From an uncultured Candidatus Saccharibacteria bacterium (GTDB lineage: Bacteria; Patescibacteriota; WWE3; 9FT-COMBO-53-11): 64,000 nt of DNA. The position numbers and the translations under genes were made by a program. This document shows positions 2,309 through 12,284 of this stretch, one piece after another. A model generated the notes under the pieces. It was not told the origin of the DNA and searched no databases. It worked only from the letters and a program-made list of their open reading frames with translations. How positions within the stretch are numbered: the first letter of the stretch is position 1; each line of letters begins with the position of its first letter. The stretch is from the NCBI GenBank assembly GCA_964512075.1, contig CAZEID010000006.1, positions 1,024 through 65,023 on the forward strand, given 5' to 3'.

Positions 2309-2418
2309 CCCCGAGCTTTTTGCGCCTAAAATAGGCGCAAAAAGTGGGCAGGGAGAATGCTTAGGGACAGAATTAGACTAGCAAAAATCGGCTTAAAAAG
2401 CAAGCCAACTCGCCAAAG

Positions 2419-2439
2419 GCTAAAAGCTAAACGCTAAGG
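2419..2439. repeat. tandem heptamer array GCTAAAA-GCTAAAC-GCTAAGG
   Basis: Read directly. Lies about 110 bp upstream of the peptidase start and downstream of the rho stop. Confidence 0.5.
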
Positions 2440-2479
2440 AAAAATACCTTTTGCCTTCCGCTTTTCGCGCCGGGCTGGT

Positions 2480-3673: not shown

Positions 3674-3821
3674 TAGAAAATAGCAAACGGCTTGCAGCTT
3701 ACGACGAACAGCGAAAGACCAAATCGCTGTTAGCGGTTAGCTTTATGCTGTTAGCTAGGTGGAATCGGGTAGACGACCACTGCCCCTAGTCGCCTACCCA
3801 ACCAACAATATAGCATATCTT

Positions 3822-3857
3822 GCTAAGAGCTAAAAGCAAAATGCTAAAAGCTAAACG
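3822..3857. repeat. tandem heptamer array (5 units: GCTAAGA GCTAAAA GCAAAAT GCTAAAA GCTAAAC)
   Basis: Read directly. About 150-185 bp upstream of the rho start and overlapping the 3' end of the four-helix-bundle pseudogene. Confidence 0.5.
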
Positions 3858-4206
3858 TCGTTCAGAGACTTTTGGAACGAACGCATCTTTCGAATAAGCA
3901 CCTCATATTCAGCGTAGTATTTTCCTCTGTCAGATGCAGACAGAATATTTTGCCGAACTGTAATCTCAACCAGAGGAATACACTCGTAACAGGAACCAAC
4001 CGCGATACCGACGAATCTCGCAAACTCTTTCTTGTTTCTTCCGCTTCCTTCAGCTATATTCAAAGCCGCGGAAAGCGATGCCCTCTCCTTATTTGCGAGG
4101 TGAGATCCAACAAGTACTCTTTAGGCCAATCCTTGGTAAGAGTGTAAATTTCGTGAGCTAACCCGAGAGAATCTTTATAGATATCGAGGCTTTTAAAACT
4201 AAGCAC
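3851..4206 (-). pseudogene. four-helix-bundle protein (23S rRNA intervening-sequence protein family), disrupted by a single-base frameshift
   Basis: One frame gives (GTG)LSFKSLDIYKDSLGLAHEIYTLTKDWPKEYLLDLTSQIRRGHRFPRL-stop. The frame offset by 2 nt continues ASLSAALNIAEGSGRNKKEFARFVGIAVGSCYECIPLVEITVRQNIL... Joined, they give a full-length family member. The shift sits in a GGG/CCC run at about 4081-4083. Confidence 0.55.
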
Positions 4207-4209
4207 GGC

Positions 4210-4238
4210 TTTTCGCCTTTAGCTTTTAGCCTTTCGCC
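4210..4238. repeat. heptamer array in inverted orientation (revcomp GGCGAAA GGCTAAAA GCTAAAG GCGAAAA GCC)
   Basis: Read directly. Inverted relative to the 3822-3857 array, so the two bracket the four-helix-bundle gene. Confidence 0.45.
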
Positions 4239-4241
4239 AAA

Positions 4242-4850
4242 TTACCAATACTTGGTAATTTTGATTCGACGGACGAGGAACCCGAGGTAAGCCAGAAAGA
4301 GAGAAGTGGCAATCACATCGGCGGAGCCAGTTTCCGGCAAAACTTTTCCCAAAACCTCACCCTTAACCGTAGTCCGGGCTGCGCACTGGAACCACTCATT
4401 TCCTTCCTTCCAGGTTTTCTTAATCTGAAGTACCGACTCAATCAAGTCCCCCGCCGTTACTCCGGCCTTCACCCTCGCCTGGAAAGTCACTTTGACCCAC
4501 TCTCCCGGATTAAGAACTCCTAAATTAAGGCCGTCAGTTAGCCAAGCGTCGGTTACGGAAGCACCCCCGCCCAGACTATCCGACCAGGCGGTAGAACCCG
4601 CGACATAAGTCAGATAGGGAGAAAGGGTCTCGGAAATGAAAACCGGATCAATCTTGGTATCGCCCACATTGGTAATTTGAATCGTATAGGTGAGGGTATC
4701 GCCGACCGAAGCCGTCGCCTTATCAACGGTTTGCTTGGCATCGATTTGGTAAGTCTCCGCCATGGCATTAAAAAGCGGCGCTAACGAGAGCGCAAAGCCG
4801 ATTAAGACTGTTGCAACTAGAATCTTCAAACCACTCATGCTTTTAATCAT
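4242..4850 (-). CDS. LPXTG cell-wall-anchored surface protein with a DUF11-type conserved repeat domain
   Basis: Signal peptide MIKSMSGLKILVATVLIGFALS. DUF11-like motif VGDTLTYTIQITNVGDT. C-terminal sorting signal LPETG plus a hydrophobic stretch plus RRIKITKYW. Start taken at an internal Met; the longest ORF extends to 4952. Confidence 0.6.
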   Translation of the reverse strand: MIKSMSGLKILVATVLIGFALSLAPLFNAMAETYQIDAKQTVDKATASVGDTLTYTIQITNVGDTKIDPVFISETLSPYLTYVAGSTAWSDSLGGGASVTDAWLTDGLNLGVLNPGEWVKVTFQARVKAGVTAGDLIESVLQIKKTWKEGNEWFQCAARTTVKGEVLGKVLPETGSADVIATSLFLAYLGFLVRRIKITKYW

Positions 4851-9788: not shown

Positions 9789-9865
9789 GGGCGAATAGCT
9801 CAGCCGGTTAGAGCGCTGTCCTGATAAGACAGAGGTCCGTGGTTCGAATCCACGTTCGCCCACCA
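9789..9865 (+). tRNA. tRNA-Ile (anticodon GAT)
   Basis: 77-nt cloverleaf. Acceptor GGGCGAA/TTCGCCC, anticodon loop CTGATAA, T-loop TTCGAAT, encoded CCA. Confidence 0.85.
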
Positions 9866-9902: not shown

Positions 9903-10004
9903 GTTTTTCTTAAGCAAGAGCAAGGAAGGAACTGGCCGGTGGTTTTTCCGCCAAGGGCGGGTCAGCCAGAGCTGATATAGCAAACCACCAAACTTAACCA
10001 ATGG

Positions 10005-11716: not shown

Positions 11717-11757
11717 GGCTAAAGGCAAAGCCTTTTGCTTTTCGCTTTTAGCTTCTT
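11717..11757. repeat. heptamer-type repeat and hairpin in the 16S leader (GCTAAAGGCAAAGCC / TTTTGCTTTTCGCTTTTAGC)
   Basis: Revcomp reads GCAAGAA GCTAAAA GCGAAAA GCAAAAG GC..., the same 7-nt periodic motif as at 2419, 3822 and 4210. It lies 30-70 nt upstream of the mature 16S 5' end. Confidence 0.4.
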
Positions 11758-12284
11758 GCTAGTGCTTTCGCGCTGTGTTCCTTCCTTGCTCTTGCTCTTT
11801 ACTGAATTGTTGTTTCTTGACAGAAACACCACAGTGCTCCTTACGTGTTGCACTATGGTCTGGAAAAAATTTACTTGTTAAAGTTCTCGCGATCGGGGTG
11901 GAAATTAAAAAACCCCCGTGCGGGGGCCCCAAGGGTCTACAGAAAATTGTGATTTCCTATTCCCGCATCGCTGGTGTTAATTTAACCGGTCTGAACACAA
12001 AAGTCAAGGGGGCCCCCAACTTCACCTCGGGAAGGACTAACGCCGATTAACTGGATCAAAAGCTCCCCAAACCGGCCTAAGGGCTGTCAAACAATAGTTC
12101 GGTTTTGCCAAAACAAAAGTTGACTAAACGCCAATCTCCTTTCTCCACGAAAAGGGATTAAAAATAAACAAGGTCGCAAAAACTACTCGCGGGGTAGCAA
12201 AGCTGGTAAGAAAACGCTTTTACTGGTTTGAAGATGTCTTAACAGTTGATACAGCAGCGTATAGTCCAGAATTAATTCTGGAAA

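What the first reader, a model, noticed from the sequence alone, without database searches (positions are those of the whole stretch)
3822..4238. IVS-like cassette outside any rRNA gene: frameshifted four-helix-bundle protein gene bracketed by inverted heptamer arrays
Four-helix-bundle proteins of this family are classically encoded inside 23S rRNA intervening sequences, which are stem-loops excised by RNase III. Here the gene sits between rho and an LPXTG protein gene. It is flanked by GCTAAAA-type arrays in inverted orientation that could pair into a long stem, mimicking an IVS. It is interrupted by a single-base shift in a GGG run at about 4081-4083. Joining the two frames restores a full-length family member, so this is either a recent pseudogene, a sequencing error at a homopolymer, or a recoding site. 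The 16S here is also unlinked from 23S, which raises the possibility of past rRNA-operon rearrangement.
Basis: partly seen in the sequence, partly recalled or inferred. Interest (0 to 1): 0.55.

Follow-up and report, generated by a model that had tools for sequence, protein, structure and literature searches.

The report
Broken four-helix-bundle gene in hairpin cassette

Summary
Window 3822-4238 (minus strand) carries one PF05635/TIGR02436 four-helix-bundle (4HB) gene between an LPETG/DUF11 gene and rho. It is enclosed by inverted GCNAAAR heptamer arrays and broken at 4081-4083. The break is a 2-nt insertion relative to the intact syntenic ortholog. Two other assemblies share it while differing from the window by SNPs elsewhere. 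It is therefore a real, recent pseudogene, not a sequencing error, and recoding is unlikely.

Relatives with 80-87% identical Rho keep the same synteny but lack the cassette. It lies in no rRNA gene, and neither do any of 84 homologous loci (±4 kb).

The main new result concerns the family. In 81 loci from about nine phyla, 66 have period-7 or period-8 tandem arrays next to the ORF, usually as inverted pairs. The combined criterion is met by 26 of 72 4HB genes against 2 of 341 other ORFs. The genes are also embedded co-directionally in operons.

The cassette has the size and stem architecture of ORF-bearing rRNA intervening sequences. RNase III excision is inferred, not shown. Arm mismatches show no G·U bias, so a role as a protein-binding array remains open. 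The link to an rRNA rearrangement is unsupported.

The parts
4204..4242 (-). 5' arm: four tandem heptamers (GCGAAAG GCTAAAA GCTAAAG GCGAAAA). It begins 3 nt after the stop codon of the upstream LPETG/DUF11 gene and ends 1 nt before the GTG start of the 4HB ORF.
4081..4206 (-). N-terminal part of the 4HB gene (GTG start at 4206; residues 1-42, helix 1 and the start of helix 2, up to QIRR). If read on in this frame it stops at 4060-4062 after 48 aa.
4081..4083 (-). Frame break: a GGG run holding 2 nt more than the ortholog and all homologs (AGGAGA-GG-GCATCG). Reading through would need a -1/+2 shift.
   Evidence: identical in L001 and L002
3851..4080 (-). C-terminal part of the 4HB gene in the second frame (ASLSAALNIAEGSGR...SLNDV, TAG stop at 3851-3853). 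It retains all 16 columns that are invariant in the family alignment.
3818..3860 (-). 3' arm: five tandem heptamers complementary to the 5' arm (sense strand TTTAGC TTTTAGC ATTTTGC TTTTAGC TCTTAGC). The TAG stop codon lies inside the first unit.
3767..3812 (-). Host sequence just downstream of the cassette: a rho promoter-like extended -10 (TGCTATATT, 3807-3815) and a conserved rho-leader hairpin (3767-3799). Both are also present at the cassette-free sites of relatives, so they mark the boundary of the insertion.
3681..3757 (-). Heptamer-array hairpin without an ORF in the rho 5' UTR (GCTAACA GCATAAA GCTAACC GCTAACA, a 9-nt loop, then the complement). It has the same GCNAAAN-type unit and is also present in the ortholog L004.
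   Evidence: (I2)
2412..2472 (-). Heptamer-array hairpin without an ORF directly after the rho stop codon, followed by a U run (terminator-like).
11726..11767 (-). Third strong period-7 array of the window (GCAAGAA GCTAAAA GCGAAAA GCAAAAG). It lies in the 16S leader, between the 16S processing stem and the 5' end of 16S.

Best explanation
What it is. This is a recently inactivated copy of a PF05635/TIGR02436 four-helix-bundle gene cassette. The cassette is a ~350-nt ORF enclosed exactly by two inverted arrays of 4-5 heptamers (GCNAAAR). It lies between the stop codon of an LPETG/DUF11 surface-protein gene and the rho promoter.

History. It was gained in the common ancestor of this organism and the L004 lineage, or lost from slightly more distant relatives that keep the same gene order without it. 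A 2-nt insertion now truncates the product after 48 residues. That insertion is fixed in at least three strain-level variants.

How it most likely works (inferred, about 0.4-0.5 on its own). The cassette has no promoter of its own and is transcribed by read-through from the upstream gene. The two arrays pair into a ~20-30-bp imperfect duplex with the ORF in the loop. This is the architecture of ORF-bearing 23S rRNA intervening sequences, which RNase III cuts mid-stem. Such cleavage would release the ORF RNA and leave the flanking host RNA functional, which would explain why these cassettes are tolerated inside operons and rRNA.

What is shown: family membership, the frameshift and its reality, presence or absence of the cassette among relatives, complementarity of the arms, and the family-wide association with period-7/8 arrays and with operon embedding.

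What is inferred: co-transcription, RNase III processing, and mobility.

The 7-nt periodicity itself is not explained by a processing stem. It may reflect a second role of the arrays as repeated protein-binding units.
For: - Family.
- Frameshift as a 2-nt insertion relative to the intact syntenic ortholog L004 (CLIPPER-4HB-rho-LysM/M23).
- Frameshift is real: the 600-nt region is 100% identical in L001 and L002, which differ from the window by 14 SNPs in 9673 nt and 3 in 6839 nt.
- Inactivation is recent: all 16 invariant family columns are kept.
- Empty sites: L087-L092 (Rho 80-87% identical) have CLIPPER-rho-LysM synteny and the same rho promoter and leader hairpin but no 4HB.
- Arms.
- Family-wide arrays: 66 of 81 loci have a period-7 (39) or period-8 (27) array within 80 nt of the ORF, against 4 loci for lags 4-6 and 9-11.
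- Arrays are 32 times denser within 120 nt of 4HB ORFs than elsewhere in the same loci.
- 'Both flanks periodic and duplex <= -20 kcal/mol' holds for 26 of 72 4HB genes against 2 of 341 other ORFs, Fisher p 7e-20. One of those 2 is itself a second 4HB gene.
- Inverted arms reach score >= 30 in 35 of 81 loci, against 9 of 81 for direct orientation and 7 of 322 for non-cognate pairs.
- Operon embedding: the upstream neighbour is co-directional in 72 of 76 loci and both neighbours in 62 of 73, against a background of 0.76 and 0.58 (p 1e-5 and 7e-7).
- Contexts seen here: rplK-4HB-rplA, upstream of secE-nusG.
- Contexts in the literature: cmr3-4HB-cmr2 (PMC3936711); XCC0516 next to bccP with a 4-unit GGGAATC array overlapping its start (PMC4692102 supplement).
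- IVS analogy: the Coxiella IVS is 428 nt with a 28-bp terminal stem cut mid-stem by RNase III, and its ORF lacks an RBS (PMC4990558).
Against: - No transcript or cleavage data exist for this organism.
- The fold of the whole 441 nt is not significantly better than shuffles (z -1.4). The arm-only hairpin is only moderately significant (z -2.2). MFE and centroid structures use different registers.
- Across 35 loci, arm mismatches show no excess of G·U over A·C (44 against 50), and 87 are transversions. There is therefore no signature of selection for pairing in the sense RNA.
- A simple processing stem does not explain why the arms are tandem 7/8-mers, or why positions 1, 2, 4 and 5 of the unit are conserved on both arms and at ORF-less arrays elsewhere.
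- The 3' arm can also pair with the rho-leader array (z -3.8).
- I could not examine any true rRNA-embedded copy.
- The direction of the polymorphism (gain or loss) is unresolved.
Confidence: 0.7

Rival explanations
1. The arrays are not primarily an RNA stem. They are repeated binding or recognition units (in DNA, or in single-stranded RNA or DNA) for the oligomeric 4HB protein or a host factor. On this reading they are iteron-like sites that mark the cassette ends and other targets such as the rho leader, the rho 3' end and the 16S leader. The cassette and arrays would then form a two-part regulatory or mobile system. With the gene broken, the arrays here would be orphaned.
For: - Strict 7/8-nt periodicity across phyla, with no signal at other lags.
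- A position-specific unit consensus, G-C-N-A-A-A-R, shared by both arms and by three ORF-less arrays within 12 kb.
- Arm mismatches are unit-level variants with no G·U bias.
- Xanthomonas has 186 GGGAATC arrays, one of them abutting its 4HB gene XCC0516.
- 2GSC and 2RLD crystallise with five chains, and the homolog Avd is a nucleic-acid-binding pentamer (Avd from own knowledge and PMC10053308).
Against: - Unit sequences differ between arrays within single loci of other genomes (one search list), so one protein recognising one motif cannot be general.
- No binding data exist.
- A period of 7-8 nt does not match the helical repeat of duplex DNA.
- The inverted orientation with complementarity is what a stem needs.
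Confidence: 0.2
2. The frame break is a programmed -1 (or +2) recoding site, and a full-length 4HB protein is still made.
For: - The break lies in or next to a Shine-Dalgarno-like AAGGAG followed by GGG.
- Both halves keep every invariant family residue.
- The sequence is identical in three strain variants.
Against: - The syntenic ortholog and all 12 aligned homologs are uninterrupted.
- A AGA GGG C is not an X XXY YYZ slippery site.
- A GGG run is too short for efficient transcriptional slippage.
- Other family members also occur as plain pseudogenes: in-frame stops in L007 and L023.
Confidence: 0.05
3. The frameshift is a sequencing or assembly error at a homopolymer, and the gene is simply intact.
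For: The break is at a short G run. Only assemblies, not reads, were available.
Against: - Three separately assembled records (the window, ENA ERZ27245602, Logan SRR5216256) agree over the whole 600 nt while differing by SNPs elsewhere.
- The difference from the ortholog is 2 nt, not 1.
- A 3-nt run is not error-prone on short-read platforms (own knowledge).
Confidence: 0.03
4. The cassette is a relic of an rRNA intervening sequence, moved here by the rearrangement that unlinked 16S from 23S.
For: - 16S is unlinked from 23S, and tRNA-Ile(GAU) lies next to it on the opposite strand.
- A heptamer array of the same unit lies in the 16S leader.
- The family name comes from 23S intervening sequences.
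Against: - No rRNA-like sequence adjoins the cassette.
- The cassette is 6 kb from 16S, with five protein genes between them.
- CLIPPER-4HB-rho is conserved in L004.
- The closest homologs sit in protein-coding operons.
- None of 84 homologous loci is in rRNA.
Confidence: 0.03
5. The heptamer arrays are generic intergenic simple-sequence hairpins or terminators of this genome, and their position around the 4HB gene is coincidental.
For: - Similar hairpins occur after rho and in the rho leader.
- Heptamer repeats are the commonest long simple-sequence repeats in bacteria (PMC4679880).
Against: - Only three strong period-7 arrays exist in 64 kb, and two of them bracket this gene.
- Across 81 loci the bracketing is about 60 times more frequent for 4HB genes than for other ORFs.
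Confidence: 0.04

Closest known systems
ORF-bearing 23S rRNA intervening sequences (Coxiella burnetii IVS/S23p; Leptospira IVS)
   Same: Same protein family (PF05635). Same size class (417 nt here, 428 nt in Coxiella). The ORF fills the loop of a stem made by terminal inverted repeats (28 bp in Coxiella). There is no evident ribosome-binding site before the ORF. Distribution among relatives is sporadic (PMC4990558).
   Different: Not in an rRNA helix. The arms are tandem heptamer arrays with about 80% complementarity rather than a near-perfect unique stem; whether IVS arms are also periodic could not be checked. RNase III cleavage is untested here. The ORF is frameshifted.
Free-standing TIGR02436 'four helix bundle protein' genes, e.g. 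Xanthomonas campestris XCC0516 (PDB 2GSC) and Bacteroides BT_0352 (2RLD)
   Same: Profile match to 2GSC at E 2e-24. Small (~117 aa), embedded co-directionally between housekeeping genes. XCC0516 also has a 4-unit heptamer array (GGGAATC) overlapping its annotated start.
   Different: The window copy is a pseudogene. Its unit is GCNAAAR. The published Xanthomonas table lists the XCC0516 array as unpaired, and that paper draws no connection to the protein family.
Intergenic heptamer simple-sequence arrays (Xanthomonas GGGAATC, Nostoc GGGGAYT, Beggiatoaceae/cyanobacterial/Bacteroidetes TAACTGA)
   Same: Short tandem 7-mers, 2-14 units, intergenic, often abutting start codons. In Xanthomonas about 70 occur as convergent inverted pairs. 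Their function is unknown (PMC4692102, PMC4679880).
   Different: Those studies treat the arrays as G-quadruplex or translational elements and do not link them to PF05635 genes. Here the arrays specifically bracket the 4HB ORF.
Avd, the accessory protein of diversity-generating retroelements
   Same: Homologous four-helix-bundle fold and pentameric assembly (PMC10053308; own knowledge of bAvd).
   Different: No reverse transcriptase, template repeat or variable repeat nearby. The neighbours are S1, RadA, DUF11, Rho and LysM/M23.

Membership tests
PF05635 / TIGR02436 four-helix-bundle (23S rRNA IVS) protein | Profile match above the curated cut-off over the full domain | tested here: met
   PF05635 81.5 bits (cut-off 33.8), profile positions 1-104 of 106. 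TIGR02436 88 bits (cut-off 24). Both on the frame-corrected translation.
PF05635 / TIGR02436 four-helix-bundle (23S rRNA IVS) protein | Conserved motif Q/GxxRxxxSxxxNxxEG and a length of about 115-125 aa | tested here: met
   QIRR-ASLSAALNIAEG; 117 aa after correction. All 16 invariant alignment columns are kept. The motif is described in PMC3936711.
PF05635 / TIGR02436 four-helix-bundle (23S rRNA IVS) protein | Four-helix-bundle fold | tested here: inconclusive
   No structure was predicted. Sequence-profile match to the solved four-helix bundles 2GSC (E 1.9e-24) and 2RLD (2e-5).
PF05635 / TIGR02436 four-helix-bundle (23S rRNA IVS) protein | Uninterrupted reading frame (a functional member) | tested here: not met
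   2-nt insertion at 4081-4083. The two halves lie in different frames.
rRNA intervening sequence (IVS) | Inserted in an rRNA gene, replacing the loop of 23S helix 9, 25 or 45 | tested here: not met
   No rRNA flanks the cassette (Rfam; blastn with E. coli rrs/rrl). It lies between two protein genes.
rRNA intervening sequence (IVS) | Bordered by complementary sequences that form a stem of about 20-30 bp enclosing the rest | tested here: met
   Inverted repeats of 35 nt at 77% and 20 nt at 90%. The MFE structure pairs the arms. Duplex -36.4 kcal/mol against -12.4 for non-cognate pairs.
rRNA intervening sequence (IVS) | Excised from the precursor by RNase III without religation | not testable with these tools
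   Needs transcript-end mapping in wild type and an rnc mutant, or in-vitro cleavage.
Programmed -1 ribosomal frameshift site | Slippery heptamer X XXY YYZ at the shift | tested here: not met
   The sequence is A AGG AGA GGG CAT.
Programmed -1 ribosomal frameshift site | Frameshift conserved in orthologs | tested here: not met
   Ortholog L004 and 12 homologs are in one frame.
Diversity-generating retroelement (Avd component) | Adjacent reverse transcriptase and template/variable repeats | tested here: not met
   ORFs and Pfam calls within ±5 kb are S1, RadA, an unknown protein, DUF11, Rho and LysM/M23.
Transposable element / MITE | Terminal inverted repeats plus a target-site duplication and a transposase (own or in trans) | tested here: inconclusive
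   Inverted arms are present, and the cassette is present or absent among relatives. No direct repeat is visible outside the arms and no transposase is nearby. Relative L087 has an ORF-less heptamer hairpin at the same site.

The most novel reading that the evidence does not exclude
PF05635 four-helix-bundle genes and short-period (7-8 nt) tandem arrays may form a two-part system that spans many phyla and that I did not find described. On this reading the ORF sits between inverted arrays as an operon-embedded, self-insulating cassette. ORF-bearing rRNA intervening sequences would then be the special case where such a cassette landed in an rRNA helix. The arrays, including ORF-less ones such as those at the rho leader, rho 3' end and 16S leader here and possibly the unexplained GGGAATC arrays of Xanthomonas, would be the cognate nucleic-acid sites, or the products, of the oligomeric 4HB protein.
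Probability: 0.3. Interest if true: 0.8.

Novelty: new variant of a known kind. Interest (0 to 1): 0.55.

Why it matters
The locus itself is a dead copy of a common small gene and has little consequence for the organism.

It matters as an entry point. PF05635 is a very widespread family, and Warrier et al. 2016 still treat its product as a hypothetical protein and the role of the IVS as unknown. Why this one family is found inside rRNA intervening sequences has not been explained either.

Three results here make those questions testable:
- The ORF is specifically bracketed by inverted 7/8-nt arrays in about nine phyla.
- It is embedded co-directionally in operons (rplK-rplA, secE-nusG, and cmr3-cmr2 from the literature).
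- It is present or absent between close relatives.

Together these suggest that an IVS is simply this cassette landed in rRNA. They also link the family to the unexplained heptamer repeat arrays of Xanthomonas and perhaps other bacteria. Both ideas can be tested with RNase III mapping and binding assays in cultivable carriers.

Tried and rejected
- Sequencing error: rejected, because three assemblies with SNP differences share the shift.
- Programmed frameshift: rejected as unlikely.
- Origin from rRNA: Rfam at gathering and at E<=5 and blastn with E. coli 16S/23S found no rRNA near the cassette or in any of 84 homologous loci. The Rfam E-value hits were only chance matches to miRNA-precursor hairpins.
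- Test for RNA-level selection on the arms (G·U against A·C mismatches): negative, 44 against 50. The RNA-stem model therefore stays unproven.
- Whole-region fold significance: weak (z -1.4).
- Promoter and terminator scan: found no promoter for the cassette and did not pick up the rho promoter that the alignment suggests.
- Attempt to find rRNA-embedded copies among the closest homologs (P0013, P0016, P0017): all three lie in protein-coding contexts, so I could not check whether true IVS arms are also periodic.
- Literature: nine searches (PF05635, TIGR02436, 23S_rRNA_IVP, S23p, heptamer/STRR terms, Xcc0516) found no paper linking the family to tandem heptamer arrays. The last search was poorly chosen and uninformative. 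The supplement of the TAACTGA paper does not mention the family.
- DGR/Avd context: rejected, no reverse transcriptase nearby.
- Transposon reading: no target-site duplication or transposase seen.
Full report
**What is at the locus**

All genes in the first 9 kb of the window run on the minus strand. In order they are:
- an LPETG/DUF11 (CLIPPER) surface protein, 4952->4242;
- two short ORFs in different frames, 4206->4060 and 4063->3851;
- rho, 3673->2480;
- a LysM/M23 peptidase.

Joining the two short ORFs gives a 117-aa protein.
- It matches PF05635 end to end (E 6e-23, 81.5 bits against a cut-off of 33.8).
- It matches TIGR02436 'four helix bundle protein' (88 bits against 24).
- It matches the solved pentameric four-helix bundle XCC0516, PDB 2GSC (E 2e-24).
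- A six-frame HMM scan finds no other copy in the 64 kb. It places the frame change at HMM positions 40-42.

**The frame break**

Twelve homologs read QIRR-ASLS at this point. The window reads AGG AGA GG GCA TCG. A nucleotide alignment with the syntenic ortholog shows exactly two extra bases in the window: AAGGAGAGGGCA against AAGGCGA--GCT. The lesion is therefore a 2-nt insertion that creates the GGG run at 4081-4083. It is not a single-base slip, although its effect on the frame equals a 1-nt deletion.

The break is real.
- An ENA metagenome assembly (L001) and a Logan assembly of SRR5216256 (L002) are 100% identical to the window over the 600 nt that hold the cassette.
- Elsewhere L001 differs from the window by 14 SNPs in 9673 nt and L002 by 3 in 6839 nt. 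These are separate assemblies of distinct strain variants, although whether the window derives from the same read sets is unknown.

Recoding is unlikely.
- The ortholog in L004 (61% identical protein; CLIPPER-4HB-rho-LysM/M23) is intact at 114 aa.
- The sequence is not a slippery heptamer.
- Every invariant residue of the family is still encoded, so the inactivation is recent.
- Two of the 84 other loci examined also carry broken copies, with in-frame stops (L007, L023).

**The arrays**

The ORF is enclosed exactly.
- Four heptamers (GCGAAAG GCTAAAA GCTAAAG GCGAAAA; 4237->4210) start 3 nt after the CLIPPER stop codon and end 1 nt before the GTG start.
- Five complementary heptamers (3856->3822) begin inside the TAG stop codon.
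- The motif is far more frequent than chance: 14 matches against 2.0 expected, with 0 of 100 shuffles reaching that.
- A consensus-free scan finds only three strong period-7 arrays in the 64 kb. Two flank this gene and the third lies in the 16S leader.

The predicted pairing is real but moderate.
- The arm-to-arm duplex is -36.4 kcal/mol, against -12.4 ± 6.0 for non-cognate flank pairs.
- The arms alone fold at -28.3 kcal/mol with z = -2.2.
- The MFE of the whole 441 nt contains the stem but is not exceptional (z = -1.4).

Weaker arrays of the same G-C-N-A-A-A-R unit form ORF-less hairpins in the rho 5' UTR (3681-3757) and just after the rho stop codon (2412-2472). No Rfam family matches any of these.

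**History of the site**

A scan of metagenomes with Rho returned 80 loci.
- Six relatives with 80-87% identical Rho (L087-L092) keep CLIPPER-rho-LysM synteny.
- They also keep the same rho promoter-like box and leader hairpin.
- None of them has a 4HB gene.
- Only the window lineage and L004 (Rho 89%) carry the cassette.
- L004 has the same arrangement of arms and the same second hairpin in the rho leader.
- One empty site (L087) has an ORF-less heptamer hairpin, with a different unit, directly after the CLIPPER stop codon.

The cassette is thus polymorphic, present or absent, among close relatives. The data do not tell gain from loss. They also do not tell whether the hairpin preceded the ORF.

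**The family at large**

I fetched 80 loci with PF05635 genes from GTDB genomes of about nine phyla: Patescibacteria, Bacteroidota, Proteobacteria, Acidobacteriota, Chloroflexota, Elusimicrobiota, Planctomycetota, Verrucomicrobiota and Kapabacteria. I compared their flanks with the window and with L003-L005.

Rows 1 and 3 below use the 81 loci that have at least 80 nt of flank; row 4 uses the 81 that have at least 70 nt. Rows 2, 5 and 8 use all loci with a defined ORF. Rows 6 and 7 use the ORF sets called.

| Measure | 4HB genes | Control |
|---|---|---|
| rRNA within 4 kb (the same search detects the window's 16S) | 0 of 84 loci | – |
| Mean cognate flank duplex (kcal/mol) | -20.3 | -12.4 non-cognate |
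| Period-7 or period-8 array within 80 nt (>= 19 of 28 self-matches) | 66 of 81 (39 period 7, 27 period 8) | 4 of 81 loci for lags 4-6 and 9-11; none in coding sequence at >= 21 of 28 |
| Inverted arms, score >= 30 | 35 of 81 | 9 of 81 direct; 7 of 322 non-cognate |
| Array density | 32 times higher within 120 nt of the ORF | rest of the same loci |
| Both flanks periodic and duplex <= -20 kcal/mol | 26 of 72 | 2 of 341 other ORFs (Fisher p 7e-20) |
| Neighbours co-directional | upstream 72 of 76; both 62 of 73 | background 0.76 and 0.58 (p 1e-5, 7e-7) |
| Median gaps to neighbours | 75 nt upstream, 53 nt downstream | – |

- One of the two control ORFs that meet the combined criterion is itself a second 4HB gene.
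- The repeat unit differs from lineage to lineage. Examples are GCGAATA, GATCAGR, GCTWCTA, GCCNTAR and CTGAGTNN.
- Many loci are Flavobacteriia orthologs, so the counts are not phylogenetically independent. The pattern nevertheless recurs in most of the sampled phyla.

Contexts seen here:
- rplK-4HB-rplA in three Curtissbacteria-like contigs, where the stem overlaps the start codon;
- upstream of secE-nusG-rplKAJ.

Contexts from the literature:
- a copy between cmr3 and cmr2 (PMC3936711);
- in Xanthomonas, a 4-unit GGGAATC array overlapping the start of XCC0516, next to bccP (supplement of PMC4692102).

The authors of the Xanthomonas paper did not connect their 186 heptamer arrays to this protein family. 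Nine literature searches found no paper that makes the link.

**How it probably works**

The cassette has no recognisable promoter and starts 3 nt after the upstream stop codon. It is presumably transcribed by read-through.

The arms would pair and put the ORF in a loop. This is the architecture of the Coxiella 23S IVS: 428 nt, a 28-bp stem, RNase III cleavage in mid-stem, and an ORF without an RBS (PMC4990558). I therefore favour this model: the cassette is a self-insulating insert that RNase III cuts out of host transcripts. That would explain its tolerance in operons and in rRNA.

These steps are inferred, not shown. Two results count against a pure RNA-stem reading.
- Arm mismatches across 35 loci show no preference for G·U over A·C (44 against 50), and 87 are transversions.
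- The arms are tandem units with conserved positions (1, 2, 4 and 5 here), which a stem alone does not require.

A role for the arrays as repeated recognition units for the oligomeric protein is therefore a live rival, or a complement to the stem model. In this organism the protein is truncated in any case.

**What is not supported**

Nothing links the cassette to an rRNA rearrangement. 16S is indeed unlinked from 23S, which from my own knowledge is common in Patescibacteria/CPR. The 16S gene has its own perfect 20-nt processing stem (9913-9932 and 11777-11796). The cassette lies 6 kb away behind five protein genes, and its position is conserved in a relative.

**Verdict**

As a gene the locus is ordinary. 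Its repeat-bracketed, operon-embedded layout appears to be an undescribed hallmark of a large family of unknown function, and that is where the interest lies.

Noticed in passing
window 3767-3799 (minus strand); L087-L092, L095, L096, L099: A conserved hairpin in the rho 5' leader, GGGUAGGCRAC-NN-GGGGCAGUGG-GUYGYCUACCC. The loop is invariant and the stem shows compensatory changes in nine relatives (for example GGGGAGGCGAC/GUCGUCUCCC and GGGAAGGUGAC/GUCGCCUUCCC). A TGnTAnnAT promoter-like box precedes it. It has no Rfam match and may be a rho autoregulatory leader element.
   Followed up: partly
window 3681-3757 and 2412-2472: Hairpins made of the same GCNAAAN heptamer arrays but without an ORF, one in the rho 5' UTR and one just after the rho stop codon (followed by a U run). 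Ortholog L004 has the first of these, and a 10-unit array after its own rho.
   Followed up: partly
window 11726-11767; 9913-9932 and 11777-11796: The third strong heptamer array of the window lies in the 16S leader. A perfect 20-nt inverted repeat (AGCAAGAGCAAGGAAGGAAC) brackets the 16S gene and is presumably its RNase III processing stem.
   Followed up: partly
window 9789-9865: tRNA-Ile(GAU), the usual 16S-23S spacer tRNA, lies 265 nt from the 16S 3' end but on the opposite strand, convergent with 16S. No 23S is present in the window. This looks like a remnant of an inverted or broken rrn operon.
   Followed up: no
L005 2997-3381; L167; L169: In Curtissbacteria-like contigs a 4HB gene sits between rplK and rplA. 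Its enclosing stem includes the start codon and the first codons (TTAGTTATGAG / CTCATAACTAA), which suggests occlusion of translation initiation.
   Followed up: partly
L087 2705-2790: At the orthologous cassette-free site, a relative carries an ORF-less heptamer hairpin with a different unit (GTAGCNA x5, loop, complement) directly after the CLIPPER stop codon.
   Followed up: no
L007 3950-4345; L023 3977-4357: Two other 4HB genes are interrupted by an in-frame stop codon, so decay of family members is not rare. Alternative genetic codes were not checked.
   Followed up: no
L058 1604-2044; L014; L081: Some loci carry two 4HB genes within 1-2 kb. In L058 the second copy (1649-2011) has its own pair of inverted arrays (1604-1643 and 2006-2044), with a different unit from the first.
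   Followed up: partly
L017, L018, L024, L025, L027 (Flavobacterium): Orthologous Flavobacterium 4HB genes are flanked by period-8 arrays (CTGAGTNN / GCTGAGNA). They share a further array about 680 nt upstream.
   Followed up: no
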